Positions 3,230 to 46,474 of a DNA stretch of 64,000 nt are shown here, piece by piece. Origin of the DNA: Xenorhabdus szentirmaii DSM 16338 (GTDB lineage: Bacteria > Pseudomonadota > Gammaproteobacteria > Enterobacterales > Enterobacteriaceae); contig NZ_NIBV01000001.1 of NCBI RefSeq assembly GCF_002632585.1, forward strand, positions 476,595 through 540,594, read 5' to 3'. The stretch's first letter is position 1, and every line of letters begins with the position of its first letter. Made by a program: the position numbers and the translations under genes. A model generated the notes under the pieces. The model searched no databases. It had not been told where the DNA came from and was given only the letters and a program-made list of their open reading frames with translations.

Positions 3230-3971
3230 AAAAAGTTTCGACGGGCAAAAGGTGCTGAGAAATATAAGCCTGACAATTAAGGAAGGCAGCCTGACGGCAC
3301 TGATTGGCCCTTCTGGCAGCGGAAAAAGTACCTTGCTGCGCTGCATCAATTTGTTGGAAATTCCGCAGGCTGGCAAGCTGGAGATAAGCAAAGAACAAAT
3401 TACGTTTAATGGCAAAGAGCGACTGCCACACCGGGAAATTCAGCGTTTCAGTCTGCAAACCGGCATGGTATTCCAGAACTTCCAGCTTTTCCCGCATCTG
3501 ACGGTGATTGAAAACATTATGGAAGGACTGATTTGGGTACAGAAATGGCCACATGAACGTGCCAGAAAGCGCGCGCTGGAGCTACTGGAGAAAGTCGGCA
3601 TGTCTCATAAGGCCGATGTCTGGCCAGCCACACTGTCCGGCGGGCAGCAGCAGCGCGTCGCCATCGCCAGGGCCATGGCCCCGTCACCGAAGGTGTTGTT
3701 GTGCGATGAACCAACTTCAGCACTCGATCCCGAATTATCCAAAGAAGTCGTTTCAGTTTTGAAGCAATTGGCAGGGGAAGGCACCACCATGTTAATGGCG
3801 ACGCATGATTTACGATTGGCCGCCAATCTTGCCCATGATGTCATTTTTTTGGAATCCGGTGAAATTGTCGAGTCAGGCCCGGCAAAAACCCTCTTCACCC
3901 GTCCCGATAAGGAGCGTACCGTTAAATTTATCTCAACCCTGACAGAAACTTTACCGGATTGGGAGATATAG
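3207..3971 (+). CDS. Polar amino-acid ABC transporter ATP-binding protein.
   Basis: Walker A GPSGSGKST, signature LSGGQQQRVAIARA, Walker B LLCDEPTSALD. Confidence 0.9.
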   Translation: MIQLTNIEKSFDGQKVLRNISLTIKEGSLTALIGPSGSGKSTLLRCINLLEIPQAGKLEISKEQITFNGKERLPHREIQRFSLQTGMVFQNFQLFPHLTVIENIMEGLIWVQKWPHERARKRALELLEKVGMSHKADVWPATLSGGQQQRVAIARAMAPSPKVLLCDEPTSALDPELSKEVVSVLKQLAGEGTTMLMATHDLRLAANLAHDVIFLESGEIVESGPAKTLFTRPDKERTVKFISTLTETLPDWEI

Positions 3972-17052: not shown

Positions 17053-18003
17053 TCAGTCATATTTGCCATGTTGAACAATTAAATGCTCAACACCAATCTG
17101 TAAGTAATGAAGATCTCTATAGCCTGTTTCTAACAAAATTTCACTTTCTCCATCAAAAGAATACCGACGGAGATCATTCAACCCACGTGACAAATCTTGG
17201 GTTAATAAAAACAGTTCCCCATCCATGCCTTGCACCGCTTCATTAACCCTAAAGGGTAACCATTTTACTTTCAGTACCTTACTCGTTTTATAATTCATTT
17301 TAATTTCTAATGAAGCGCGATTAGAATTCGGGGTTTGCCAAATTAAAACCTCACTGCCTTTTATTGTAAATAAATATTGATCATCATACATACTATCTGC
17401 ATTATGTTTACTCATAACGCTCTTTATATTTAATTTATTCTGCCAGTTTTTCCCACCATCCGGGCTATAATTAACATTATCTTTGTTAACATATATAATA
17501 TCATCTTCCTCTTTTGAGAACATAATCTCCCCAAAAATAAAGGCCGTTATTCTAGAGCGTTCGTTATTGTTCTTTTTCCAAGGCTGTGATGTAATTATGG
17601 GTTGATCAGCCAAGTTAATTTTAACTATGTTTTTATCCATCAATAATACACAACGTATTTCTGAGCATATAGCATTGTTTAACAACCCTGATAACCCCCC
17701 AAGAAAAACAATCTCACCCCGACGGGAATAATAAATATTATATTCATATTTCCTTTTTTCCATAGGTGTATAATCGTATTTTTTCTTATTAATTTCCATG
17801 CCAACAATAACAATTAAACCTTCTTTAACGGGATAAGATTTTATAATATCAACATTGCTTAACGTTGTCTTATTGTTTATATTCTCATTCCACTTCCATG
17901 CAGAGTAATAGTTTTTATCAATAAATAAATACCAACCTAATAAACCAATGGAAAACATGACGGTTATAATAATCAGATGTCTGTTTAAAAATGGATTAAT
18001 CAT
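17053..18003 (-). CDS. Hypothetical protein with an N-terminal signal anchor and a domain of about 280 aa outside the membrane.
   Basis: 316 aa and very AT-rich. Its start overlaps the stop of the upstream gene. Confidence 0.6.
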   Translation of the reverse strand: MINPFLNRHLIIITVMFSIGLLGWYLFIDKNYYSAWKWNENINNKTTLSNVDIIKSYPVKEGLIVIVGMEINKKKYDYTPMEKRKYEYNIYYSRRGEIVFLGGLSGLLNNAICSEIRCVLLMDKNIVKINLADQPIITSQPWKKNNNERSRITAFIFGEIMFSKEEDDIIYVNKDNVNYSPDGGKNWQNKLNIKSVMSKHNADSMYDDQYLFTIKGSEVLIWQTPNSNRASLEIKMNYKTSKVLKVKWLPFRVNEAVQGMDGELFLLTQDLSRGLNDLRRYSFDGESEILLETGYRDLHYLQIGVEHLIVQHGKYD

Positions 18004-18575
18004 TATTTCAACACCACCACATCAGAGTTTTTATTCAATTTATGTCGTTTATTACTTAAGTAATAATAAATTTGATGGCAAATCTTACCATTCCTTGAAA
18101 ACACCTTATAAAGGGTACATGCCATTTCCAAAAAGAAGAAAATACCAAAAAATACAGTGAGTAAAATAAATGAAAATTCAAAAAATGAAGATAAGACATC
18201 TATCCAATCCCAATAATAAAAAACATATCCACTTTCTATAAAATTAGACAATGTCTTTCTTAAAAAAATATCAGTTGTTGTATTTCTTTCAGTATATCTA
18301 TGCCAATCCATGTCTCTGACAGGCATAATTTTTGTGGATAATACCCCTAATTTTTTAAGGATTTCATCATCCATTGATTTGACATAATTATTTGTCTTTT
18401 TTTGTTTAGGATAATAATTCTTAACGCCATCGACATCCAGATAAATTGAATCAGGATTTATATTATACCTTCCTTCCAGTACGCTATTTAATGCTTTTAA
18501 TAATTTTCGTCGGCCAGGATGAAATATAAGTATCGTTTTACGTATTCCTCTAACAATGAAATAGAAAACCAGCAA
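18003..18575 (-). CDS. Hypothetical protein with a C-terminal TM helix.
   Basis: 190 aa, AT-rich and translationally coupled to its neighbours. Confidence 0.55.
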   Translation of the reverse strand: MLVFYFIVRGIRKTILIFHPGRRKLLKALNSVLEGRYNINPDSIYLDVDGVKNYYPKQKKTNNYVKSMDDEILKKLGVLSTKIMPVRDMDWHRYTERNTTTDIFLRKTLSNFIESGYVFYYWDWIDVLSSFFEFSFILLTVFFGIFFFLEMACTLYKVFSRNGKICHQIYYYLSNKRHKLNKNSDVVVLK

Positions 18576-28584: not shown

Positions 28585-29526
28585 ATGGCTAATCCGTTAT
28601 ATCGCAAGCATATCATTTCAATTAATGATCTGAACCGCGCAGATCTGGAATTGGTATTGCAGACGGCAGCTGCATTGAAAGCCAATCCACAGACTGAATT
28701 ACTGAAACACAAGGTGATCGCAAGCTGCTTCTTTGAAGCTTCCACGCGTACCCGCCTCTCTTTTGAAACCGCCATTCAGCGACTCGGCGCTTCTGTTGTT
28801 GGTTTTGCTGACAGCAGCAATACGTCATTGGGCAAAAAGGGAGAAACGTTGGCAGATACCATTTCCATCATCAGCCAATATGCCGATGCGATTGTGATGC
28901 GTCACCCACAAGAAGGGGCGGCACGGCTGGCTTCTGAATTTTCCGGTGATATCCCTGTCATCAACGCCGGCGATGGTGCAAACCAGCATCCAACCCAAAC
29001 GTTGTTGGACCTGTTCACCATTCAGGAAACCCAGGGCCGGCTGGAAAACCTGAAAATTGCCATGGTCGGGGATTTGAAATACGGCCGTACCGTTCACTCC
29101 CTGACTCAGGCACTGGCGAAATTCAATGGCAACCATTTCTGCTTTATCGCGCCGGATGCGCTGGCAATGCCAAGCTATATCCTGCATATGCTGGAAGAGA
29201 AACAAGTCAGTTACAGCCTCCACACTAACTTTGAAGACGTCCTACCAGAGCTGGATATTCTGTACATGACCCGTGTTCAGAAAGAGCGCCTTGATCCTTC
29301 AGAATATGCCAATATCAAAGCGCAATTTGTTCTGCGCGCGGCAGACTTGGCAAACGTCAAAGAGAACCTGAAAGTGCTGCATCCTCTGCCACGTATTGAT
29401 GAGATCACAGTGGATGTTGATAAAACGCCTTATGCTTACTATTTCCAACAAGCAGGTAACGGGATTTTCGCCCGTCAGGCATTATTATCATTGGTCTTGA
29501 ATGAAGAAGTGGTTATGGACAGTTAA
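28585..29526 (+). CDS. pyrB: Aspartate carbamoyltransferase catalytic subunit.
   Basis: STRTR, HPTQ and other ATCase motifs. It matches E. coli PyrB. Confidence 0.95.
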
Positions 29527-32410: not shown

Positions 32411-34729
32411 TTAGATAAGGCGAGAAAATTTAGATTTATCCTGTTCAGTGAGAGACAGTTTCACTGGCACAGATTTTGACGTGGGTGTGCCGGTTCCATC
32501 CCCAATACTTTCCATTGGGACTAAAGGGTTCGTTTCAGGGTAGTAAGCGGCGAGGTTCCCACGGGGAATGGAATAAGGCACTAATTTGAAGCCAAACACT
32601 TTACGCGGGACTCCGTCATTCCATATTGTTTCGATATCCACCAAATCACCGGCCTGATAGCCCGATTGTGCAATATCTTCCGGGTTCATAAATAACACTT
32701 CCCGTTGCCCGTAAACCCCACGGTACCGGTCATCCAAACCATAAATGGTGGTGTTGTACTGGTCATGGGAACGCAAGGTCTGCAATGTGAAAGGAACGTC
32801 TGCAAGTGCAATTTGGGGAAATAAGGTGTTCGGCAGAGCCGCATGGCTGAATTCTGCTTTTTGGCTTGCCGTTGCAAAGCGTAATTCCGCCGCCGCATTC
32901 CCGAGATAAAACCCTCCCGCTTGTTCACATTTTTTATTGAAATCATCAAATCCGGGGATGGTTGCTGCAATATGGTCGCGGATTTTATTGTAATCACCCG
33001 CCAGTTCCAGCCAGTTAATCGTTTCGAGATGACCAACCGTTGCGTCAGCAATACCTGCAATAATTGAGGTTTCAGAACGCTGGGTATCAAACAGCGGTTT
33101 ATTCACGCCTTCTGACGCATGAACCATACTGAAAGAGTCTTCTACTGTCACAAATTGTGGGCCGGTAGCCTGAATATCCCGTTCGGTACGCCCCAACGTT
33201 GGCAGGATAAGCGCCCCTTTTTTGCCCGTAACCAGATGACTCCGGTTTAGTTTTGTACTGATATGCACGGTCAGATCGCAATGTTTCAACGCTTCTTCGG
33301 TGCGCGGGCTATCCGGCGCTGCCGCCGCAAGGTTTCCACCCAATGCAATCAACACCTTAACCTCATCACGCAACATCGCACTCAGGGCTTCCACAACGTT
33401 ATGCCCGTGGGCACGGGGAGGTTCGAATCCAAAATGGGCGGCCAAGCTATCCAAGAAAGGCTTGTTGGGTTGTTCATTAATCCCCATCGTCCGATTGCCC
33501 TGCACATTACTGTGACCGCGCACGGGGCAAAGCCCTGCACCGGGTTTCCCCAACTGACCAAACAACAATTGCAAATTGACTATTTCACGCACGGTCGCCA
33601 AAGAGTGTTTATGTTGAGTGATCCCCATTGCCCAAGTGCAAATCACACGCTCTGCGTTCTGGTAAATCGCCGCCGCTTCCCGCAACTGTGTTTCAGACAA
33701 TCCGGATTGAGCCTCAATAAACGACCATTCTGTCTCAGCGACTTCTTGCAAGTAGGCTTCCACACCTTTGGTATAAGTGTTAATAAACTCCCTATCAAAA
33801 ATGCCCGGTTGACCATCAGCCAGCCGTGCATTATGCGTTTCCAGAAGCGCCTTAACCATTCCCCGCACCGCGGCCATATCACCACCTAATTTAGGTTGGT
33901 AGTAGCGATGGCTAATTTCTCCCGCCCTTGAAGTCACCACTTCAAGGGGTTTTTGTGGATCTGCGAAACGTTCCAAACCTCGTTCACGCAATGTATTGAA
34001 GGTCACAATGCGCGCTCCGTGTTCAGCCGCATGTCTCAGGCTATGCAGCATTCGCGGGTGGTTTGTGCCGGGGTTCTGGCCAAAGACAAAAATGGCATCC
34101 GCATGATCGAAATCTTGCAGCCGGATTGTTCCTTTCCCCACCCCCAAGCTTTGTAACATGCCGAAACCGCTGGCTTCATGGCACATGTTGGAACAATCAG
34201 GGAAGTTATTCGTTCCCAGCACGCGGCCAAACAACTGGTACAGCCATGAGGCTTCATTACTGGCTCGGCCAGAAGTATAGAGCTCAAGCTGATCGGGATT
34301 ATCCATCGCATTGATATGGCAGGCGATCAGCGCAAAAGCGTCATCCCAGCTAATCGGCTCATAGTGATCCGTTTGTGGGTTGTAGCTCAACGGCTCAACA
34401 ACCCGCCCTTGATATTCAAGGAAATAATCACTTTGCTGGTAAAGTTTACTGACGCTGTGAGTTGCAAAAAATGTCCGATCAATATAGCGGTGGGTTGCTT
34501 CCCATGTGACCGCCTTAGCGCCATTTTCACAAAAACTGAACAGGCTTTTATTATCATCTCCCCATGCACATCCCGGACAATCAAAGCCTTTGGGCTTGTT
34601 CATGCGCATCAGGTTAACCATATTTTTCAGGGCTTGTTTGCTATCAAAGACAAAGCGGGTTGTTGCCTCCAGTGATCCCCAACCACCAGCCGCTGAGTGG
34701 TAAGGTTTTATTTTGGATTTGAATTTCAT
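32411..34729 (-). CDS. YdeP/FdhF-like molybdopterin oxidoreductase alpha subunit.
   Basis: 772 aa with an N-terminal Cys cluster DCPGCAWGD and molybdopterin oxidoreductase family architecture. Confidence 0.75.
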   Translation of the reverse strand: MKFKSKIKPYHSAAGGWGSLEATTRFVFDSKQALKNMVNLMRMNKPKGFDCPGCAWGDDNKSLFSFCENGAKAVTWEATHRYIDRTFFATHSVSKLYQQSDYFLEYQGRVVEPLSYNPQTDHYEPISWDDAFALIACHINAMDNPDQLELYTSGRASNEASWLYQLFGRVLGTNNFPDCSNMCHEASGFGMLQSLGVGKGTIRLQDFDHADAIFVFGQNPGTNHPRMLHSLRHAAEHGARIVTFNTLRERGLERFADPQKPLEVVTSRAGEISHRYYQPKLGGDMAAVRGMVKALLETHNARLADGQPGIFDREFINTYTKGVEAYLQEVAETEWSFIEAQSGLSETQLREAAAIYQNAERVICTWAMGITQHKHSLATVREIVNLQLLFGQLGKPGAGLCPVRGHSNVQGNRTMGINEQPNKPFLDSLAAHFGFEPPRAHGHNVVEALSAMLRDEVKVLIALGGNLAAAAPDSPRTEEALKHCDLTVHISTKLNRSHLVTGKKGALILPTLGRTERDIQATGPQFVTVEDSFSMVHASEGVNKPLFDTQRSETSIIAGIADATVGHLETINWLELAGDYNKIRDHIAATIPGFDDFNKKCEQAGGFYLGNAAAELRFATASQKAEFSHAALPNTLFPQIALADVPFTLQTLRSHDQYNTTIYGLDDRYRGVYGQREVLFMNPEDIAQSGYQAGDLVDIETIWNDGVPRKVFGFKLVPYSIPRGNLAAYYPETNPLVPMESIGDGTGTPTSKSVPVKLSLTEQDKSKFSRLI

Positions 34730-35789: not shown

Positions 35790-37010
35790 TCATCCCCCAT
35801 GACTCACAATAAAATAAACAAATGTGCCCACGTAGTTACCAATCACATACCCCACCGTGCCAATCACCATAATCGGGCCAACCAGATTATTCCAGCCACG
35901 GCTGATAGCCATTGCCGCCGCCGTTGTTGGCCCGCCAATATTGGCGTTGCACGCAAGAATATTTTCTTCAAGGCTGAATTTAAATATTTTCCCTGCCGCA
36001 AAGGTCAGCATCAGGTTTATCATGGCAATGACAAACACAAAGCCAAACAGCAGAGGTGCATGGCTGAGGATGGCATGAACGGATGCCGGTATGCCAATCA
36101 CAACAAAAAACATGTAAATGGCATAAGTTCCCAGCTCTTGTGTGCCATTCAGTTTGCTGAATGTTTCTTTAAATATTGAAACGATAATAAACGTCACCGT
36201 GGTCAGGAGCAGGTATTTATCGGTGATCAGGCTGAAAATTAACTCCTGAAAAAGATTATTGGGTTGCCCCAACAGGGCTTTTGACCATGCTGAGAGATGA
36301 AATGACAACGCCACGATAAAGATTGACCATGCCAACGATGATGCTATGTCTTTCAGGGCGATATTTTTGGGCTGCCAATAGGCAGCTGCCATCGTTTGGG
36401 ATTTATCAAATGCGGGGCTATTTTCAACTTCATCTGTATAGGGACTGCCCCAGATATTTCTCGCCACTTTCCAGCCAGATAAGACTATCAGGATAATAAA
36501 ATAACCTGCCATCATAAAATTATCGGCGACGATGGTGGATACCACCATACCTTGGGATGTGTCCAGCTTGGCTGCCATTGCGACGAAGTTAACACCGCCC
36601 CCTGTGTAGGAAGCAGAAATCATGCCGCTGATTTTATCCAATTCAGGAATGTATGCCCTGAACAGGTGGAAAGCGATGATGGCTCCCGTCATGGTGGCAA
36701 TGGAAGAAATCAAAAACAGGATCAGCAGTCGCCCGCTTTCTCTGATAATGCGTTGTAAGTTGGTTTTAAATAACAGTAAAGGGATCGCCAGTGGCAGGAT
36801 ATATTCCCAGACAACATCATAGGCGGGGGCTTCGGCAGGAATGATATGCAGGTTTGAAGCCACAATTGCAATGATCAGGGCAATCACTGAACCCGGAATT
36901 TTAGATGCCCATTTGAAATGCTGTTCAGACAGAATGGCAGCCGCAACGGTCATCATAATAAAGGCCCAGAGCATCAATGAATTGTCGGCAGTGATAAGGG
37001 TGTTGATCAT
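35790..37010 (-). CDS. DUF819-family polytopic membrane protein.
   Basis: 406 aa with ASYTGGGVNFVA and CNANIGGPTTAAA motifs. Confidence 0.6.
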   Translation of the reverse strand: MINTLITADNSLMLWAFIMMTVAAAILSEQHFKWASKIPGSVIALIIAIVASNLHIIPAEAPAYDVVWEYILPLAIPLLLFKTNLQRIIRESGRLLILFLISSIATMTGAIIAFHLFRAYIPELDKISGMISASYTGGGVNFVAMAAKLDTSQGMVVSTIVADNFMMAGYFIILIVLSGWKVARNIWGSPYTDEVENSPAFDKSQTMAAAYWQPKNIALKDIASSLAWSIFIVALSFHLSAWSKALLGQPNNLFQELIFSLITDKYLLLTTVTFIIVSIFKETFSKLNGTQELGTYAIYMFFVVIGIPASVHAILSHAPLLFGFVFVIAMINLMLTFAAGKIFKFSLEENILACNANIGGPTTAAAMAISRGWNNLVGPIMVIGTVGYVIGNYVGTFVYFIVSHGG

Positions 37011-37052: not shown

Positions 37053-37781
37053 CTATCGTGCCATGCTCGAGTCTACCGCACCATAAAGAGCCGTCTGATT
37101 TTTATAAAATGCCCATAAAGAATTGCCGTAATCATAATGCCACCATTCTGTCGGGTAATTGCTAAAGCCTGCTTGCGTCATGGCCTGATACAGTAATCGG
37201 CGATATAAGGTTGCCGGCATATTTTTGTCTGGATCGGCTTCTAATGCGACGGTATAAGAGCGCTCACTCACTTCATCAAATTCAGTCCCCAAGTTCAGGG
37301 CATGGCCCGTTTCCCGATCAAAAAGAGTGACATCAACCGCTCCTCCCGTTAAATGAGGGAGAACTTGATTCGCATCCACGGGGGCCGGAGCGACAAATTT
37401 CTGCAACATCCGTTGCTGTTCTTCAGGGGGCAAGCCGGCAAATTGCGCTGCAATATCTGCCTGCGTTTTCTCCTGCAATGCTTGCTGAACTTCCCGGGAG
37501 CGCCAGCCATCCAATATCAATAACCCTAAATGGTCAGGGAGCAGTTGTGATACCAGAGTCAATTTTTCCGCAACACTTTTCCTTACTAAGCCGTGTTCAA
37601 TCGAGCCTTTTATTCCATCCAGAAAATAGACCGGTTTCTGTTTTAACTTTTCCGTATCAGTAATGAAAACTAAAGGTTCATGGCATTCATGAATAGGGAT
37701 TTTATTAATGAGCGACCAGTCAGCATCTTTTTCCGGCACGATTTTTTCTGCGGGATTTTTATCTGTATCAATCTGCTTCAT
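37053..37781 (-). CDS. ddpX: D-alanyl-D-alanine dipeptidase (VanX/DdpX, M15D).
   Basis: DGWRSREVQ, HLTGGAVDV and EWWHY motifs. Confidence 0.8.
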   Translation of the reverse strand: MKQIDTDKNPAEKIVPEKDADWSLINKIPIHECHEPLVFITDTEKLKQKPVYFLDGIKGSIEHGLVRKSVAEKLTLVSQLLPDHLGLLILDGWRSREVQQALQEKTQADIAAQFAGLPPEEQQRMLQKFVAPAPVDANQVLPHLTGGAVDVTLFDRETGHALNLGTEFDEVSERSYTVALEADPDKNMPATLYRRLLYQAMTQAGFSNYPTEWWHYDYGNSLWAFYKNQTALYGAVDSSMAR

Positions 37782-38050: not shown

Positions 38051-38515
38051 ATGACCCAAGATCATCAACTACAAGTAGAAGCCATTAAATGTGGCACCGT
38101 TATCGACCACATTCCAGCTCATGTCGGCTTTAAGTTATTATCGCTGTTCAAACTGACTGAAACAGACCAGCGCATTACCATCGGCCTGAATCTGCCTTCC
38201 AATCATTTGGGCAGAAAGGATCTGATCAAGATTGAAAATACTTTCCTGACGGAACAGCAGGCAAACCAGCTCGCTATATATGCTCCCCATGCCACAATCA
38301 ATAATATTGAAAACTATGTTGTGGTTAATAAGATGCCAATCAATCTGCCAGAATGCATCGACAGTATTCTTGTTTGCCCAAACAGCAACTGCATCAGTCA
38401 CAATGAGCCGGTCAACAGCAGTTTCCGCGTGCTGAAAGCAAAAAATGATGTTGTACTGCTTTGTAAATATTGTGAAAAAGAATTTGATCGCCAAGCCGTT
38501 ATCAAGAACGACTAA
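38051..38515 (+). CDS. pyrI: Aspartate carbamoyltransferase regulatory subunit.
   Basis: Collinear with E. coli PyrI, including the Zn Cys cluster CPNSNCISH...CKYCE. Confidence 0.95.
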
Positions 38516-38662: not shown

Positions 38663-39049
38663 ATGTCACGTTCTATTCATACCGATAATGCCCCAGCGGC
38701 AATTGGCCCTTATGTTCAGGGTGTTGATCTTGGCAGTATGGTGATCACTTCCGGTCAGATCCCTGTCGATCCGAAAACCGGTGCTATCCCTGACGATATT
38801 ACCGCTCAAGCCCGCCAGTCTCTGAAAAATGTGAAAGCGATCATCGAGCAATCTGGCCTGAAAGTCGCTGATATCGTAAAAACCACTGTGTTCGTTAAAG
38901 ATCTGAACGACTTTGCAACAGTAAATGCGGCTTATGAAGCATTCTTTAATGAGCATAATGCGCCATTCCCTGCACGTTCATGTGTTGAAGTGGCCCGTCT
39001 GCCAAAAGATGTGAAAATCGAAATCGAAGCGATGGCTGTCCGCCGCTGA
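38663..39049 (+). CDS. ridA: Enamine/imine deaminase RidA.
   Basis: 128 aa in the YjgF family. It is downstream of pyrI as in E. coli. Confidence 0.9.
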   Translation: MSRSIHTDNAPAAIGPYVQGVDLGSMVITSGQIPVDPKTGAIPDDITAQARQSLKNVKAIIEQSGLKVADIVKTTVFVKDLNDFATVNAAYEAFFNEHNAPFPARSCVEVARLPKDVKIEIEAMAVRR

Positions 39050-39061
39050 TTTCTGTTTTCC

Positions 39062-39098
39062 ACAACCCTGAACATATTTGTGTCAGGGTTGTTATTTC
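39062..39098 (+). terminator. Rho-independent terminator of ridA.
   Basis: ACAACCCTGAacatatttgtgTCAGGGTTGTtatttc. Confidence 0.7.
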
Positions 39099-39288
39099 GG
39101 GCCAGCCATTTTTCTTTTTCCTTCCCTCTTTTCCCTTTTCCTGACAATTTTCCTTTTCTTTGTCTCAGATCAACTTTGTGGGTGGTATATTGGATTAAAA
39201 AATCCATATATTGTGCTTAAATATTTAAACACACCTATATATAGTGTTTATGCACAAGATTATCCACATATAACCAAAACACGCTGTC

Positions 39289-41205
39289 ATGTCATTTTCG
39301 CCTGTGGATAATATATCGAGGAGCTTTACCGTGAATTCACATACATGGCACGATCAGCTAGATCAAGAGATCCGTGGCCTGATCGAACAAAATCATTTTT
39401 CCCTGCTTAATGAAAATGCCAATAAAGACAGTAAAGTCATCCCAACCCAACGCGATTTATTGGCTGGGATCGTCGCCAGACAGTATGCCAAACAGCATAT
39501 GTTGCCCCGTGATGTGGTAATGGCGCATGAAAAGGGAGAAATTCATTATCATGATCTGGATTACGCCCCTTTTTTCCCTATGTTCAACTGCATGCTGATT
39601 GACTTGCAAGGTATGTTAACCCATGGCTTTAAGATGGGTAACGCAGAGATTGAACCGCCCAAATCCATCTCTACTGCGACAGCGGTCACCGCTCAGATCA
39701 TCGCGCAAGTTGCCAGCCATATTTATGGTGGCACAACGATCAATCGCATTGATGAAGTCTTGGCGCCTTTCGTAAAAGCCAGTTATGACAAACATCTGGC
39801 CATTGCCAAAGAGTGGGAAATTGCAGATCAGGCCGCCTACGCAGAAGCCCGAACCGAAAAAGAGTGCTATGACGCTTTTCAGTCTCTGGAATACGAGGTC
39901 AATACACTGCATACCGCCAATGGGCAGACACCATTTGTCACATTTGGCTTCGGGCTGGGCACGTCAAAAGAGTCTCGTCTGATTCAGATTTCTATTCTGC
40001 GCAACCGCATTGCCGGTTTGGGGAAAAACCACAAGACCGCTGTGTTTCCTAAATTGGTTTTCGCCATTCGTGATGGGTTGAATCACCGATTTGGTGATCC
40101 CCACTATGATATTAAATTACTTGCGCTGGAATGTGCCAGTAAGCGGATGTATCCCGATATCCTCAATTATGATCAAGTGGTTAAGGTGACCGGCTCATTT
40201 AAAACGCCAATGGGTTGCCGCAGTTTTCTCGGTGTTTATGAAGAGAATGGTCAGCAATTGCATGAGGGGCGCAATAACTTAGGTGTGATCAGCCTTAATC
40301 TGCCCCGCATTGCGCTCGAAGCCAAAGGTCATGAGGCGAAATTCTGGGCGATTCTGGAGCAGCGTTTGGTGATGGCTAAAAAAGCGCTGATGACAAGAAT
40401 TTCCCGCCTCGAAAAGACGAAGGCTCGTGTTGCACCTATTCTCTATATGGAAGGAGCCTGTGGCGTTCGGCTGAAAGCGGATGACAATATTGCCGGGATT
40501 TTCAAACAGGGCCGTGCCTCTATTTCGTTGGGATATATCGGTATCCATGAAACGATAAATGCGTTATATGGCAACCATCCTCATCTCTTTGATGATGAAC
40601 AACGTCAGCAAAAAGCGCTTTCCATTGTCAAACGGTTACGTGAGGCTGTTGACCAATGGAAACATGAAACCGGCTATGGATTCAGTCTCTACAGTACCCC
40701 AAGTGAAAACTTGTGTGACCGTTTCTGTCGTCTGGATACCGCTGAATTTGGCGTGGTCCAGGGGGTCACGGATAAAGGCTATTACACCAATAGCTTCCAT
40801 TTGGATGTAGAAAAGAAGGTCAATCCCTACGATAAACTGGATTTTGAGGCAAAATATCCGCCACTGGCAAATGGCGGTTTTATCTGTTACGGCGAATACC
40901 CTAATCTGCAACATAATTTAAAAGCATTAGAAGATGTTTGGGATTACAGCTATTCGCGTGTTCCTTACTATGGAACCAATACCCCCATTGATGAGTGTTA
41001 CCAATGTGGTTTTACGGGAGAATTTACTTGTACCAGCAAAGGATTTACCTGCCCTCAATGTGGCAATCATGATCCTGCCCATGTTTCCGTCATCCGCCGT
41101 GTTTGTGGTTACTTGGGCAGCCCTGATGCCCGCCCCTTCAATGCAGGTAAACAGGAAGAAGTAAAACGCCGGGTGAAACATCTCAGGAATGGTCGGATGG
41201 ATTAA
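39289..41205 (+). CDS. nrdD: Anaerobic ribonucleoside-triphosphate reductase (class III) lacking the N-terminal ATP-cone. The real start may be the GTG at 39331.
   Basis: Near-identical to E. coli NrdD from residue about 95 onward, including the Zn ribbon CYQCGF..CPQCG and glycyl radical RVCGYLGSP. No ATP-cone is encoded upstream. Confidence 0.85.
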   Translation: MSFSPVDNISRSFTVNSHTWHDQLDQEIRGLIEQNHFSLLNENANKDSKVIPTQRDLLAGIVARQYAKQHMLPRDVVMAHEKGEIHYHDLDYAPFFPMFNCMLIDLQGMLTHGFKMGNAEIEPPKSISTATAVTAQIIAQVASHIYGGTTINRIDEVLAPFVKASYDKHLAIAKEWEIADQAAYAEARTEKECYDAFQSLEYEVNTLHTANGQTPFVTFGFGLGTSKESRLIQISILRNRIAGLGKNHKTAVFPKLVFAIRDGLNHRFGDPHYDIKLLALECASKRMYPDILNYDQVVKVTGSFKTPMGCRSFLGVYEENGQQLHEGRNNLGVISLNLPRIALEAKGHEAKFWAILEQRLVMAKKALMTRISRLEKTKARVAPILYMEGACGVRLKADDNIAGIFKQGRASISLGYIGIHETINALYGNHPHLFDDEQRQQKALSIVKRLREAVDQWKHETGYGFSLYSTPSENLCDRFCRLDTAEFGVVQGVTDKGYYTNSFHLDVEKKVNPYDKLDFEAKYPPLANGGFICYGEYPNLQHNLKALEDVWDYSYSRVPYYGTNTPIDECYQCGFTGEFTCTSKGFTCPQCGNHDPAHVSVIRRVCGYLGSPDARPFNAGKQEEVKRRVKHLRNGRMD

Positions 41206-41209
41206 TGTC

Positions 41210-41674
41210 ATGAATTATCATCAATATTATCCGGTTGATGTCGTCAATGGCCCGGGAACCCGCTGTACGCTGTTTGTATCAGGCTGTTTGCATCAATGTC
41301 GTGGTTGCTATAACCAAAGCACTTGGCGCGTGGATTCAGGCCAAGCTTTCACACCAGCAACCGAAGAACAGATTATTTCTGATTTGAAAGACCAGCGCAT
41401 AAGGCGGCAAGGATTATCGTTATCCGGAGGTGATCCTCTGCATCCCCATAATATTCCCGCCATACTGAGGCTGGTTAAGCATGTCAGAGAAGAGTGTCCG
41501 GATAAAGATATCTGGCTGTGGACGGGTTATGTCTTCAATGAGTTAAGTGACATCCAGCAAGAAGTCATCCGCTATATTCATGTGCTGGTTGATGGTAAGT
41601 TTGAGCAGGCGTTGTCTGATCCCACACTAATTTGGCGTGGTAGCCGCAATCAGGTCATTCACTATTTACGTTAA
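41210..41674 (+). CDS. nrdG: Class III RNR activating enzyme (radical SAM).
   Basis: [35 protein letters not shown] matches E. coli NrdG. Confidence 0.9.
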
Positions 41675-44150: not shown

Positions 44151-45365
44151 TCAGTCATGAATGAAAAAGCGTTTTATGCGCTGGGTAACGCCCCGCAATT
44201 CCCCATTGCGCAACATGCCGACCAAAATGCCCAGAATCATATATATCACCCCAAGCAACAGCATCATGCCAATATCCTTGAACACACTGTGCAATGGCAA
44301 ACCCATTTGGTTGATGCCTGCGATAGCTTTTGTCGCCCAAGTGGATGGCAATGCCGATGAAATCATCCGTACCCAATCGGGCATCGCCTGAATCGGCCAG
44401 ATTGTCCCCGAAATGTAGAAAATCGGTGTCGTGATAAAAGCCAGTGTCAGGTAGATCATTTCCACACTGCGTAAACATTCCGTCACCAGTTTGCCCAGCC
44501 CCAGTACCGCCAGCAAAAATGGGAATGTCAGTAGCAACAGGAGATAAATCGGTGCATCTTGCCGATATCCCAATACCCACGGCCACAAGACAAAAAAGAT
44601 CACCGACAAAAACAGCCAGATGGGAATTAAGGCAGACAAAGCCCCTAAATAAACGGGCAGCGGTGGCTTACCTTTAGGTGTTCCCCTTATCGCCACACTG
44701 ACACGGATGCTCGCAATCAATAAAGAATGCTGCAAAAGCATCACTAACAAACCGGGAAAAACTATCGCGGCATAGCTGATGCCCGGATTAAATAACCCGA
44801 TTGTTTCTCCACGAATTGGCTGTAGTAAGAGCTTCACCTGTTCTGTGCTGAAACCCGCTTTTAATAGCAGCGCGCCATTAAATTCTGATAAAAGTTGCTG
44901 ATAAGCTAATGCCAGATCCTGTTGTATCTGCCCATTTGCAAGACGGTTAGTTGCATCCCCATAAACAGGAACAGTGACGTTGATTCCGCTCAACAGGTGT
45001 TTTTCAAAATCGACGGGCACGATAATAATGGCAAAAATTTTTCTCAGGAGCATGTCCTGACGCGCATTATCGAGATTGTTATAGCCCTTGACTTCAACTT
45101 TCGCTGTAGAATCAATCCGGCGGATCAATGCCCAGCTCATGTGGCTGTGATCCTGATCGATCACTGCCACCGGCAAATCCCACAAAGAAGGGCGCACATA
45201 CACCAGACTCATGATACACAGCGAGATGATCAAGAGCAGCCAGAGGGGTTTTTCCAGCATCCCGAGAAAGACGTTGCGAAATGTCTGCCAATACAATGTC
45301 CAGTTAACTCGTCCATTATTATCCGCCATCATGCAGCTCCTTCTGATTGAGTAAGACGCACCCAT
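44151..45365 (-). CDS. ABC-2 family transporter permease.
   Basis: 404 aa with TM1, a large periplasmic loop, and five more TM helices. Confidence 0.75.
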   Translation of the reverse strand: MGASYSIRRSCMMADNNGRVNWTLYWQTFRNVFLGMLEKPLWLLLIISLCIMSLVYVRPSLWDLPVAVIDQDHSHMSWALIRRIDSTAKVEVKGYNNLDNARQDMLLRKIFAIIIVPVDFEKHLLSGINVTVPVYGDATNRLANGQIQQDLALAYQQLLSEFNGALLLKAGFSTEQVKLLLQPIRGETIGLFNPGISYAAIVFPGLLVMLLQHSLLIASIRVSVAIRGTPKGKPPLPVYLGALSALIPIWLFLSVIFFVLWPWVLGYRQDAPIYLLLLLTFPFLLAVLGLGKLVTECLRSVEMIYLTLAFITTPIFYISGTIWPIQAMPDWVRMISSALPSTWATKAIAGINQMGLPLHSVFKDIGMMLLLGVIYMILGILVGMLRNGELRGVTQRIKRFFIHD

Positions 45366-46474
45366 AAGCGATTGCGGATCAAGAAACCACAGACCGCAGG
45401 ATAGATTAGCAATACCAGGCAGACATGCAGAATAACGTGTAAAGAGACTTCCCTCAGAAAGATGTCGAACATAGCATTCAACGCATGAGTCAAGGGTTCG
45501 AGGTTAGAAATGATCCTTGCAGGCCATACCATGGAGAGTTCAGGCACAACCATGCCGGAAAAGGCCATTGCAATACTCACCAGCATACCGATTAGGGAGT
45601 AAGCAGTAATGGCGCTGCTGGTAAACGTAAATAACAGCAACCCAATACTTTGTGCCGCAATAACATAGAAAAATCCGACAATTGGCATATACAGGGGATT
45701 GCCTGTCACTTTCGCATCAGAAAAAACAACCAGTGCAGTGATTTCCAAGATTAATAGCAGGGTAAAAATTAAGGTATAGGGCACTAATTTCCCCAACAAT
45801 GCCCCCACGACAGATTTTGTTTTCAAAAGCTGCTTATCTCTGGACATTGTATAAATGGTGCTCGTTACCACAAAAAGCTGCAATAAATGGATGATTGCCG
45901 CAAATTGCTGGTAATAAATATAGCTGCCACTGGCGTTGAACAAGCTGTCATAGGACATCGTGGCCTTGGCTAAAGGAGGCAGTTGTTGACCGATTTCTGA
46001 TGCGATAATTGCACGATATTTTGCATTTGCCTCAGCCATCAATCCGCTGAAGTCCTGAATGGAATAACGCCCGGCACCGTAAAACAGGGCATTGTAATAG
46101 GCGCTTACCGTGGGCTGCCTGCCACTTAACGCATCTTTTTCAAAATTCTCAGGGAAATAAACCAATGCATAATCTTCTGCGCGGCTCAGACGCTCCAGAG
46201 ATTCCGGCAGGTTACTGTCATAAGATTTGATATTCGCATGGGGCGCCGCATTCAAGTCACGGATCAGGGTGCGGGACAACGTACTCTGATCATTATCCAC
46301 AACCGACACTGGCAAGTTGAATAATGTTCCTTCCGAAAAGTTTGCATTGATCAAAATAAACAGCAAAAAAGGAAATAACCAGCTCAGCCAGTGAAATACC
46401 GGATTGTGAAGTGCAGCCTTAAGTTCTCGCGTGAACGCCAGTCCAAAACTGCGCCACGCAAATTTTCTGTTCAT
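45329..46474 (-). CDS. ABC-2 family transporter permease.
   Basis: 381 aa with the same architecture. Confidence 0.75.
   Translation of the reverse strand: MNRKFAWRSFGLAFTRELKAALHNPVFHWLSWLFPFLLFILINANFSEGTLFNLPVSVVDNDQSTLSRTLIRDLNAAPHANIKSYDSNLPESLERLSRAEDYALVYFPENFEKDALSGRQPTVSAYYNALFYGAGRYSIQDFSGLMAEANAKYRAIIASEIGQQLPPLAKATMSYDSLFNASGSYIYYQQFAAIIHLLQLFVVTSTIYTMSRDKQLLKTKSVVGALLGKLVPYTLIFTLLLILEITALVVFSDAKVTGNPLYMPIVGFFYVIAAQSIGLLLFTFTSSAITAYSLIGMLVSIAMAFSGMVVPELSMVWPARIISNLEPLTHALNAMFDIFLREVSLHVILHVCLVLLIYPAVCGFLIRNRLWVRLTQSEGAA

What the first reader, a model, noticed from the sequence alone, without database searches (positions are those of the whole stretch)
39100..39340. nrdD lacks its ATP-cone; the upstream region is a 60-nt polypyrimidine tract plus inverted DnaA-box-like repeats bracketing the start codon
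From residue about 20 the encoded protein is nearly identical to E. coli NrdD residues about 95-712. The about 90 N-terminal residues that form the allosteric ATP-cone are not encoded. What lies upstream is a CT-only tract (39105-39168: ttttctttttccttccctcttttcccttttcctgacaattttccttttctttgtctc), and then ttATCCACAtataacc at 39260-39275 and ccTGTGGATAAtatat at 39302-39316. These are perfect TTATCCACA DnaA-box consensus sequences in inverted orientation spanning the ATG at 39289. A candidate NrdR box (acacctatatatagtgt, 39225-39241) and a candidate FNR half-site pair (TTGTCtcagATCAA, 39157-39170) are also present. The options are a recent 5' deletion, a functional cone-less class III RNR that has lost dATP inhibition, or a start-codon-flanking regulatory palindrome.
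Basis: partly seen in the sequence, partly recalled or inferred. Interest (0 to 1): 0.6.

Follow-up and report, generated by a model that had tools for sequence, protein, structure and literature searches.

The report
Cone-less anaerobic ribonucleotide reductase, Xenorhabdus-wide
The anaerobic ribonucleotide reductase gene of this Xenorhabdus szentirmaii window does lack its ATP/dATP-sensing domain, but the whole genus shares this old in-frame deletion in a working gene, and the DNA motifs upstream are the ordinary promoter elements found in relatives such as E. coli.

Summary
The window is from Xenorhabdus szentirmaii. NrdD has no ATP-cone. It aligns with E. coli NrdD 97-711 at 85% identity and begins within 7 residues of the naturally cone-less phage T4 enzyme.

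This is not a lesion. All 35 Xenorhabdus NrdD clusters lack the cone, while Photorhabdus and all other listed non-Xenorhabdus relatives keep it. The core is under strong purifying selection (dN/dS 0.03-0.06). The cone was removed by an in-frame internal deletion that kept the ancestral GTG start, ribosome-binding site and promoter. Some species still carry a decayed 'VKTVVIQRND' stub; the szentirmaii group lost it through a second 66-nt deletion.

The real start is GTG 39331, not ATG 39289, so the DnaA boxes do not bracket the start codon. They form a three-box array in the inferred leader: a double box at 39248-39268 and an inverted box at 39303-39311. These boxes are conserved across Enterobacterales, and ChIP-seq has shown DnaA binding upstream of E. 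coli nrdD (PMC11317965).

The tandem NrdR boxes (15-bp spacer) and the FNR-like site are also conserved and conventional. The 34-nt pure pyrimidine run is real but variable between species, and its function is unknown. Overall: a new member of a known kind, of modest interest.

The parts
38663..39049 (+). ridA (enamine/imine deaminase), the upstream gene. The order ridA-nrdD is ancestral in Morganellaceae and Pectobacterium.
   Evidence: Pfam PF01042 and NCBIfam PRK11401/TIGR00004; synteny by tblastn.
39062..39092 (+). Hairpin downstream of ridA (ACAACCCTGA / TCAGGGTTGT), a probable ridA terminator stem.
   Evidence: 10-nt perfect inverted repeat. The stem is conserved in all Xenorhabdus loci. 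The strict terminator scan did not call it, so its function is inferred.
39106..39166 (+). Polypyrimidine tract with a pure C/T run at 39109-39142. It is a species-variable low-complexity spacer just upstream of, and running into, the FNR-like site.
   Evidence: Longest such tract in the window. Identical in five other X. szentirmaii assemblies. Length and sequence vary between species.
39160..39173 (+). FNR-like site TTGTC-TCAG-ATCAA, about 63-65 bp upstream of the inferred transcription start.
   Evidence: The half-sites are invariant in 12 Xenorhabdus sequences, and a site is present at the equivalent position in other genera. It is not significant by itself. FNR activation of E. coli nrdDG is stated in PMC2892513 and PMC4009431.
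39201..39216 (+). NrdR box 1 (AATCCATATATTGTGC).
   Evidence: Conserved block in alignments A1 and A2. It lies 15 bp from box 2, as in E. coli nrdDG (PMC12176259).
39214..39222 (+). Inferred extended -10 element (TGcTTAAAT) in the spacer between the NrdR boxes. It implies a transcription start near 39229-39231.
   Evidence: Inference only. It rests on alignment with the E. coli spacer containing TAAAAT. The consensus promoter scan did not call it. There is no transcript mapping.
39232..39247 (+). NrdR box 2 (CACCTATATATAGTGT).
   Evidence: The only match in the window to ACACWATATATWGTGT with up to 3 mismatches. Conserved across genera.
39248..39268 (+). Double DnaA box: TTATGCACA - aga - TTATCCACA (3-bp spacing).
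   Evidence: The same pair with 2-3 bp spacing is present in Proteus, Morganella, Providencia, Yersinia, Serratia and Pectobacterium. The spacing rule comes from PMC11317965.
39289..39291 (+). In-frame ATG used by some public annotations (638-aa product). It is most likely not the start codon.
   Evidence: It has no ribosome-binding site. It is replaced in L004, L005 and L006, and a 1-nt indel in L007 breaks the frame. Public records disagree on the start: 624, 633 and 638 aa.
39303..39311 (-). Start-proximal DnaA box (TGTGGATAA on the + strand), 28 nt upstream of GTG.
   Evidence: A perfect box sits 28 to 35 nt upstream of the start in many of the 80 Enterobacterales loci, including the Enterobacteriaceae; in Yersinia, Serratia and some others it lies further upstream, up to about 100 nt.
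39318..39323 (+). Ribosome-binding site GAGGAG.
   Evidence: The GAGGA core is invariant in Xenorhabdus, and the site aligns with the ribosome-binding site of cone-bearing relatives.
39331..41205 (+). nrdD, class III ribonucleotide reductase catalytic subunit, 624 aa, without ATP-cone.
   Evidence: (P0001, 100% identical, X. szentirmaii).
41210..41674 (+). nrdG, the radical-SAM activase, 154 aa.
   Evidence: NCBIfam PRK11121 matches residues 8-161 of the longer ORF to profile positions 1-154. Gene calls on other assemblies agree.

Best explanation
This is the nrdDG operon of Xenorhabdus szentirmaii. After Xenorhabdus split from Photorhabdus, an in-frame internal deletion removed the roughly 70-residue body of the N-terminal ATP-cone of NrdD. 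The ancestral GTG start, ribosome-binding site and promoter were left in place. In the lineage that includes X. szentirmaii, a second 66-nt in-frame deletion then removed the decayed N-terminal stub. The protein now begins about where phage T4 NrdD begins.

The enzyme is functional. It most likely keeps specificity-site regulation but has no overall-activity (ATP-on/dATP-off) site. If so, feedback from dATP on anaerobic dNTP synthesis can act only through transcription.

That transcriptional control uses the ancestral enterobacterial promoter:
- an FNR-like activator site about 64 bp upstream of the inferred start;
- two NrdR operator boxes, 15 bp apart, flanking the -10 element;
- three DnaA boxes (a double box plus one inverted box) in the roughly 100-nt leader, where DnaA probably represses or modulates transcription.

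Shown here: domain absence, taxonomic distribution, selection, conservation of motifs, and start-codon assignment by conservation. Inferred: enzyme properties, transcription start, and the direction of the DnaA effect. The pyrimidine tract is a species-variable spacer with no assigned function.
For: Domain absence. No cone-like coding remnant lies upstream apart from the junction (tblastn).

Distribution: all 11 Xenorhabdus loci have short open frames, while Photorhabdus, Proteus, Yersinia and others have 712 aa. All 35 Xenorhabdus protein clusters lack PF03477, and every listed non-Xenorhabdus hit has it.

Internal deletion with a retained start: 'VKTVVIQRND...' stubs are present in X. bharatensis, X. 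stockiae, X. innexi, X. kozodoii and others, aligned to 'VKTVVIKRDG' of cone-bearing relatives. The nested 66-nt second deletion is seen. The NrdD tree shows Xenorhabdus as monophyletic and sister to Photorhabdus.

Function: dN/dS is 0.03-0.06, against 0.064 in Photorhabdus. Cys87, Cys296, Gly593 and the four zinc cysteines align with E. coli C175, C384, G681 and C644/647/662/665 (the residue roles are from established RNR literature). nrdG is intact.

T4 precedent: query 10-617 aligns to 1H78 residues 3-604. T4 and T. maritima NrdD lack the cone, and about 20% of class III enzymes do (PMC11226230).

Promoter: the motifs are conserved in A1 and A2. DnaA boxes occur in nearly all 80 loci. E. 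coli shows a DnaA ChIP-seq peak at nrdD with 62-fold enrichment (PMC11317965). NrdD is over-produced in an E. coli DARS2 deletion (PMC12371093). The 15-bp NrdR spacer matches E. coli (PMC12176259).
Against: No biochemical data exist for any Xenorhabdus NrdD, so loss of dATP inhibition is inferred only from domain absence and the T4 enzyme.

The transcription start is not mapped. My placement relies on homology to E. coli and on my recollection of the E. coli FNR site positions (-64.5 and about -33.5), which I could not verify because those papers are not held. The consensus promoter scan did not find this promoter.

The presence of nrdR, fnr and dnaA in this genome was not checked.

In Photorhabdus the DnaA boxes have decayed, so DnaA control of nrdD is dispensable in at least one close relative.

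The NJ tree does not cleanly resolve whether the second deletion happened once.
Confidence: 0.85

Rival explanations
1. A recent strain-specific 5' deletion has damaged nrdD, making it a lesion or a pseudogene in the making.
For: Only the raw observation that about 88 N-terminal residues present in E. coli are missing.
Against: The same architecture occurs in every Xenorhabdus species sampled. Five other X. szentirmaii assemblies have an identical or nearly identical upstream region. dN/dS is 0.03-0.06 over dS of 0.6 to above 2. All catalytic residues are kept.
Confidence: 0.01
2. Xenorhabdus replaced its native nrdD with a naturally cone-less, phage-type (T4-like) gene by horizontal transfer.
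For: The N-terminus coincides with that of T4 NrdD. The NCBIfam 618-position family PRK14704 aligns end to end.
Against: The core is 86-88% identical to Photorhabdus NrdD and 85% to E. coli. It scores 1082 bits on the enterobacterial model against 366 bits on PRK14704, below that model's cut-off. Synteny ridA-nrdD-nrdG-yhbP is unchanged. The promoter, ribosome-binding site and GTG are homologous to those of cone-bearing relatives. N-terminal stubs of the old cone survive.
Confidence: 0.01
3. Translation starts at ATG 39289. The inverted repeat around it is a translational control element, for example an mRNA hairpin that hides or exposes the start.
For: ATG 39289 is in frame, and RefSeq-style annotation uses it (638 aa). 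The minimum-energy fold of the leader pairs the two 9-10-nt arms.
Against: There is no ribosome-binding site before the ATG. The ATG is absent in L004, L005 and L006 and out of frame in L007. GAGGA plus GTG is invariant and homologous to the start of 712-aa relatives. The fold is no more stable than shuffled sequence (z = -0.38). Where one arm changes (L007, L008, L009, L011) the other does not compensate. In Enterobacteriaceae the two boxes are direct rather than inverted, so no hairpin can form, yet both are perfectly conserved.
Confidence: 0.05
4. The pyrimidine tract is a functional regulatory element, such as a triplex or other unusual DNA structure or a protein-binding platform that modulates FNR-dependent activation. 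It is not a neutral spacer.
For: It is the most extreme strand-asymmetric tract in 64 kb. It directly abuts the FNR-like site. It is invariant among X. szentirmaii assemblies. Some C/T richness is shared by other Xenorhabdus species, with a 30-nt run in X. littoralis.
Against: Length and sequence are not conserved between species: 8-18 nt in most Xenorhabdus and at most 13 nt in the other genera scanned from L017 on (at most 9 in the five Photorhabdus loci). No repeat unit or mirror repeat was detected. No Rfam family matches.
Confidence: 0.1

Closest known systems
Bacteriophage T4 NrdD (PDB 1H78/1H7A/1HK8), a natural class III RNR without an ATP-cone
   Same: It has the same domain content (NRDD barrel, glycyl-radical domain, zinc site) and no ATP-cone. 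The N-termini coincide to within 7 residues.
   Different: The Xenorhabdus protein is a chromosomal enterobacterial NrdD, 85% identical to the E. coli enzyme, that lost the cone secondarily. T4 NrdD is a more distant phage homologue (729 bits, against 1472 bits for the identical X. szentirmaii entry). No biochemistry exists for the Xenorhabdus enzyme.
E. coli NrdD/NrdG and the nrdDG promoter (FNR, NrdR, DnaA)
   Same: The catalytic core is orthologous. NrdR boxes are tandem with a 15-bp spacer. A perfect DnaA box sits about 30 nt upstream of the start. An FNR-type site lies upstream.
   Different: E. coli NrdD has the 95-residue ATP-cone. In Enterobacteriaceae the two perfect DnaA boxes are direct repeats about 78 bp apart. 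In Xenorhabdus (and Proteus, Yersinia, Pectobacterium) there is a double box plus an inverted box 34 bp away. The upstream neighbour is treC in E. coli and ridA here.
Photorhabdus NrdD (sister genus)
   Same: Closest cone-bearing relative, 86-88% identical in the core. It has the same ridA-nrdD-nrdG-yhbP synteny, the same GTG start and the same NrdR and FNR-like sites.
   Different: Photorhabdus keeps the cone (712-719 aa with PF03477). It has lost the double DnaA box, and its proximal box is degenerate.
DnaA-regulated nrdAB and polA promoters of E. coli (double DnaA boxes)
   Same: A near-consensus and a consensus 9-mer in direct orientation 3 bp apart. Compare polA TTATGCACAaagTTATCCACA with TTATGCACAagaTTATCCACA here.
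   Different: The gene is different, and the position here is in the inferred leader rather than upstream of the promoter. DnaA binding has not been tested in Xenorhabdus.

Membership tests
Class III (anaerobic) ribonucleotide reductase NrdD | NRDD catalytic barrel plus C-terminal glycyl-radical domain with the RVCGY motif | tested here: met
   PF13597 (624 bits) and PF01228 (107 bits). TIGR02487 scores 661 bits against a cut-off of 326, and PRK09263 scores 1082 against 657. RRVCGYLG aligns with E. coli G681.
Class III (anaerobic) ribonucleotide reductase NrdD | Active-site cysteines and the four-cysteine zinc site | tested here: met
   C87, C296 and C556/559/574/577 align with E. coli C175, C384 and C644/647/662/665. 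The roles of these residues come from the RNR literature and were not tested.
Class III (anaerobic) ribonucleotide reductase NrdD | Adjacent NrdG radical-SAM activase | tested here: met
   PRK11121 scores 284 bits against a cut-off of 199. The gene starts 4 nt after the nrdD stop.
ATP-cone-regulated NrdD (E. coli / Prevotella copri type) | N-terminal ATP-cone domain (PF03477) carrying the overall-activity site | tested here: not met
   There is no PF03477 hit, and profile positions 1-94 of PRK09263 are unmatched. No cone-coding remnant lies upstream. PF03477 is absent from all Xenorhabdus clusters.
Cone-less NrdD (T4 / Thermotoga type) | Active enzyme with a specificity site only and no dATP switch-off | not testable with these tools
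   The architecture matches. Activity and allostery need enzymology.
DnaA binding site (double DnaA box) | 9-mer TTATCCACA (or TTWTNCACA) paired with a second box 2-3 bp away in the same orientation | tested here: met
   TTATGCACA-aga-TTATCCACA at 39248-39268. The rule is from PMC11317965.
DnaA binding site (double DnaA box) | Conservation beyond the neutral background | tested here: met
   Perfect 9-mers lie at corresponding positions in most of 80 loci from many genera, while mean column identity in the upstream alignment is 42%.
DnaA binding site (double DnaA box) | Occupancy by DnaA | not testable with these tools
   Shown only for E. coli nrdD by ChIP-seq.
NrdR operator | Two 16-bp palindromic NrdR boxes separated by 15-16 bp, upstream of an nrd operon | tested here: met
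   Boxes at 39201-39216 and 39232-39247 with a 15-bp spacer, conserved in all relatives. The criterion is from PMC12176259 and PMC2892513. A single box alone is not significant.
NrdR operator | nrdR gene present in the genome | not tested
FNR-activated promoter | TTGAT-N4-ATCAA site at an activating distance from the transcription start | tested here: inconclusive
   TTGTC-TCAG-ATCAA matches 8 of 10 positions. It is invariant in Xenorhabdus and positionally conserved. There are 101 equally good matches in the window, and the transcription start is only inferred.

The most novel reading that the evidence does not exclude
Xenorhabdus and Photorhabdus may have taken reciprocal routes after their split. 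Xenorhabdus discarded the allosteric on/off domain of its anaerobic reductase but kept the full DnaA/NrdR/FNR promoter. Photorhabdus kept the cone but let the DnaA boxes decay. If this reflects a real trade-off, control of anaerobic dNTP supply can be shifted between the enzyme level and the transcription level. The Xenorhabdus genus would then offer a natural series of cone-deletion intermediates for testing what the class III ATP-cone is for in vivo: a 34-residue stub, a 29-residue stub and no stub.
Probability: 0.12. Interest if true: 0.5.

Novelty: new member of a known kind. Interest (0 to 1): 0.27.

Why it matters
Cone-less class III reductases are already known; about a fifth of the class lacks the cone, including the structurally solved T4 enzyme. 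DnaA, NrdR and FNR control of nrdDG is established or reported in E. coli. Nothing here changes the textbook picture.

The modest value lies in three points:
- A whole, well-sampled genus lost the overall-activity site by a datable in-frame deletion, while its sister genus kept it. This gives closely matched natural enzyme pairs (88% identical cores) for asking what dATP switch-off contributes under anaerobiosis.
- The DnaA boxes upstream of nrdD are perfectly conserved across most Enterobacterales. This supports the recent E. coli ChIP-seq result that nrdD belongs to the DnaA regulon.
- Public annotation of this gene uses three different start codons, and conservation points to GTG 39331.

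Tried and rejected
- Cone remnants in the upstream DNA. tblastn with the Photorhabdus, Proteus and Yersinia N-termini found only the junction and, in some species, the first 13-19 residues. No hidden or frameshifted cone was found.
- RNA-hairpin reading of the inverted boxes. The hairpin is predicted, but the leader folds no better than shuffles (z = -0.38), and there are no compensatory changes.
- Known RNA families. There was nothing but a chance miRNA-model hit at E = 0.7.
- Consensus promoter and terminator scan. It gave no useful call for the inferred promoter or for the ridA hairpin.
- Statistical support for the FNR and NrdR matches within the window alone. There is none. Their support is comparative only.
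- Length polymorphism of the C/T tract between X. szentirmaii assemblies. There is none, only 0-2 substitutions elsewhere in the intergenic region.
- Reading Boston & Atlung 2003 and Torrents et al. 2007 for the mapped E. coli start and site positions. Neither paper is held, so those positions rest on my memory.
- Literature on Xenorhabdus NrdD. No paper in the library mentions it.
- nrdR in the genome could not be checked.
Full report
**What is in the sequence**

The region 38663-41674 reads ridA, a 281-nt intergenic region, nrdD and nrdG. The nrdD product matches the enterobacterial NrdD model PRK09263 from profile position 95 to 709 of 712. It carries only the NRDD and glycyl-radical Pfam domains and has no ATP-cone. 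BLASTP against E. coli NrdD, taken from an annotated E. coli chromosome, gives 85% identity over query 9-623 and E. coli 97-711. The domain loss is therefore real. 'Nearly identical' overstates the similarity.

A 100% identical protein is annotated in Xenorhabdus szentirmaii, which identifies the source organism.

**Start codon**

The open frame extends up to ATG 39289, and some public records use it (638 aa; others use 633 or 624 aa). Several facts point instead to GTG 39331:
- GTG 39331 lies 7 nt after GAGGAG (39318-39323).
- The ribosome-binding-site core and this GTG are invariant in all 12 Xenorhabdus sequences.
- They align with the GTG or ATG start of the 712-aa proteins of Photorhabdus, Proteus, Yersinia, Pectobacterium and E. 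coli.
- ATG 39289 has no ribosome-binding site, is replaced in three species, and is put out of frame by a 1-nt indel in X. mauleonii.

The 'PVDNISRS' peptide of the long annotation is simply the DnaA box and ribosome-binding site read in frame. The inverted boxes therefore lie upstream of the start. They do not flank it.

**How widespread the loss is**

A scan of one genome per species returned 80 loci.
- All 11 Xenorhabdus loci have short open frames.
- Photorhabdus, Proteus, Morganella, Providencia, Yersinia, Serratia, Pectobacterium, Dickeya, Edwardsiella and the Enterobacteriaceae all encode the full protein beginning VKTVVIKRDG or MTPHVMKRDG.
- In the protein search, all 35 Xenorhabdus clusters are 624-680 aa without PF03477. 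They include szentirmaii, littoralis, miraniensis, beddingii, nematophila, siamensis, indica, budapestensis, cabanillasii, stockiae and innexi.
- Every other listed hit is at least 708 aa with PF03477.

The organisation is typical of the lineage and is not a lesion.

**How the cone was lost**

The N-termini fall into three classes, measured as residues before the conserved EIRGL motif. The ancestral value is 100.

| Class | Residues before EIRGL | Example N-terminus | Species |
|---|---|---|---|
| L | 34 | MKMVVTQQDD... | kozodoii, anantnagensis, IM139775 |
| M | 29 | MKTVVMQRNNHPVNVEKKALHEWHDRLDQ | stockiae, innexi, bharatensis, budapestensis and others |
| S | 12 | (V)NSHTWHDQLDQ | szentirmaii, littoralis, beddingii, miraniensis, nematophila |

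The L and M stubs keep a recognisable but decayed copy of the first roughly 14 residues of the cone; the KRDG nucleotide-binding motif has become QRNN or QQDD. The body of the cone was thus removed by an in-frame internal deletion that spared the start codon.

At the DNA level, the S form equals an L-like form minus a further 66 nt directly after GTGAA. S and L share the rejoined sequence TTCC-NAT-ANA-TGG.

A neighbour-joining tree of the core places Xenorhabdus as monophyletic and sister to Photorhabdus. The M species form one clade, and S plus L form the other. The simplest history is one deletion in the Xenorhabdus stem, followed by a second in the S lineage. The tree does not resolve whether the second event was single.

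tblastn found no other cone-coding remnant upstream.

**Is the gene functional?**

- dN/dS of the core between Xenorhabdus species is 0.03-0.06 at dS of 0.6 to above 2. A Photorhabdus pair gives 0.064.
- The radical glycine, both active-site cysteines and the four zinc cysteines are retained.
- nrdG is intact.
- The protein aligns with phage T4 NrdD from query residue 10 to T4 residue 3. T4 NrdD is a solved, active enzyme that lacks the cone.
- About 20% of class III enzymes lack the cone (PMC11226230).

I infer an active enzyme without the ATP-on/dATP-off switch. This was not measured.

A phage origin is excluded by the 86-88% identity to Photorhabdus, the unchanged ridA-nrdD-nrdG-yhbP synteny, the homologous promoter and the surviving stubs.

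**The upstream region**

Alignments within Xenorhabdus (A1) and across families (A2) show the same order of conserved blocks:
1. ridA hairpin, 39062-39092.
2. A variable spacer.
3. FNR-like TTGTC-N4-ATCAA, 39160-39173.
4. NrdR box 1, 39201-39216.
5. A 15-bp AT-rich spacer.
6. NrdR box 2, 39232-39247.
7. Double DnaA box TTATGCACA-aga-TTATCCACA, 39248-39268.
8. 34 bp of unconserved sequence.
9. Inverted box TGTGGATAA, 39303-39311.
10. Ribosome-binding site and GTG.

The 15-bp NrdR spacer equals that of E. coli nrdDG (PMC12176259). The E. coli spacer contains TAAAAT. By homology I place the -10 element in the Xenorhabdus spacer (TGcTTAAAT) and the transcription start near 39229-39231.

That placement puts the FNR-like site at about -64. 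The value agrees with my recollection of the essential E. coli FNR-2 site, which I could not verify. It also puts all three DnaA boxes in a leader of about 100 nt.

**DnaA boxes**

Perfect 9-mers occur at corresponding positions upstream of nrdD in most of the 80 loci, in two arrangements:
- Morganellaceae, Yersiniaceae, Pectobacteriaceae and Edwardsiella have a double box (2-3 bp spacing) plus an inverted proximal box.
- Enterobacteriaceae have two direct TGTGGATAA boxes about 78 bp apart.

This is a strong phylogenetic footprint, given 42% mean column identity in the alignment.

It is not new biology. E. coli DnaA ChIP-seq found a 62-fold peak upstream of nrdD. That paper notes the sites had been predicted earlier, and it shows that DnaA prefers box pairs 2-3 bp apart (PMC11317965). 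NrdD is over-produced in an E. coli DARS2 deletion, which lowers DnaA-ATP (PMC12371093). That result is compatible with repression by DnaA.

The RNA-hairpin alternative is weak. Stability is no better than shuffled sequence, there are no compensatory changes, and in Enterobacteriaceae the boxes are not inverted.

**The pyrimidine tract**

The 34-nt pure C/T run (39109-39142) is the most extreme in the window. It is invariant in five other X. szentirmaii assemblies.

Between species the spacer varies freely in length and sequence. The longest pure run is 30 nt in X. littoralis, 8-18 nt in other Xenorhabdus species and at most 13 nt in the other genera scanned (at most 9 in Photorhabdus). No internal repeat was detected, and no RNA family matches.

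I read it as a low-complexity spacer between the ridA terminator and the FNR-like site. A structural role cannot be excluded.

**Verdict**

The exceptions are the start codon and some coordinates.

It is driven by the ancestral FNR/NrdR/DnaA promoter, which is already described for E. coli.

The finding is a new member of a known kind. I found no paper mentioning Xenorhabdus NrdD. Interest is modest. The nested deletion series, and the reciprocal pattern in Photorhabdus (cone kept, DnaA boxes lost), are the only points that might repay follow-up.

Noticed in passing
window 28585-29526 (pyrB) and 38051-38515 (pyrI): The aspartate carbamoyltransferase genes pyrB and pyrI are separated by about 8.5 kb. 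The intervening DNA carries two ORFs with no family match, an FdhF/YdeP-type oxidoreductase (32411-34729, -), a DUF819 protein (35790-37010, -) and an M15 D-Ala-D-Ala dipeptidase-like protein (37053-37781, -). DUF819 also lies between pyrB and pyrI in Photorhabdus. In Proteus, Providencia and Pectobacterium the two genes are contiguous.
   Followed up: partly
L010, L013-L016 (Photorhabdus), about 30-100 nt upstream of nrdD: Photorhabdus keeps the NrdD ATP-cone, but it has lost the double DnaA box (deleted in alignment A2) and has only a degenerate proximal box (TTTGGATAA or TTTTGAACA). This is the reverse of Xenorhabdus.
   Followed up: partly
L011 (X. innexi) about 3680-3790; alignment A1 columns 184-243: About 60 bp containing the NrdR box 1 - spacer - box 2 unit appears tandemly duplicated. 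That would give four NrdR boxes upstream of nrdD in this species.
   Followed up: no
window 39289 / 39304 / 39331: Public records annotate the same X. szentirmaii gene with three different starts, giving products of 638, 633 and 624 aa (P0003, P0002, P0001). Conservation supports only the 624-aa form.
   Followed up: yes
L087, L088 (runs SRR32300893 and SRR32300892); window 39245: Two independent short assembled contigs both begin exactly at window position 39245. That is 86 nt upstream of the GTG and about 15 nt downstream of the inferred transcription start. If these runs are RNA-seq, this would fit the proposed start. The nature of the runs is unknown.
   Followed up: no
window 18333-18341 (-) and 46293-46301 (+): There are two further perfect TTATCCACA 9-mers, so the window holds 4 against 0.77 expected. 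Both are single boxes inside long ORFs (18003-18575 -, 45329-46474 -) with no neighbouring second box visible. They are probably chance matches.
   Followed up: partly
L008 (X. stockiae) about 3835-3915; P0030 and P0033: An insertion of about 35 nt lies between the double DnaA box and the proximal box. It lengthens the open frame, so these species are annotated with a 680-aa NrdD whose first roughly 40 residues are translated leader.
   Followed up: no
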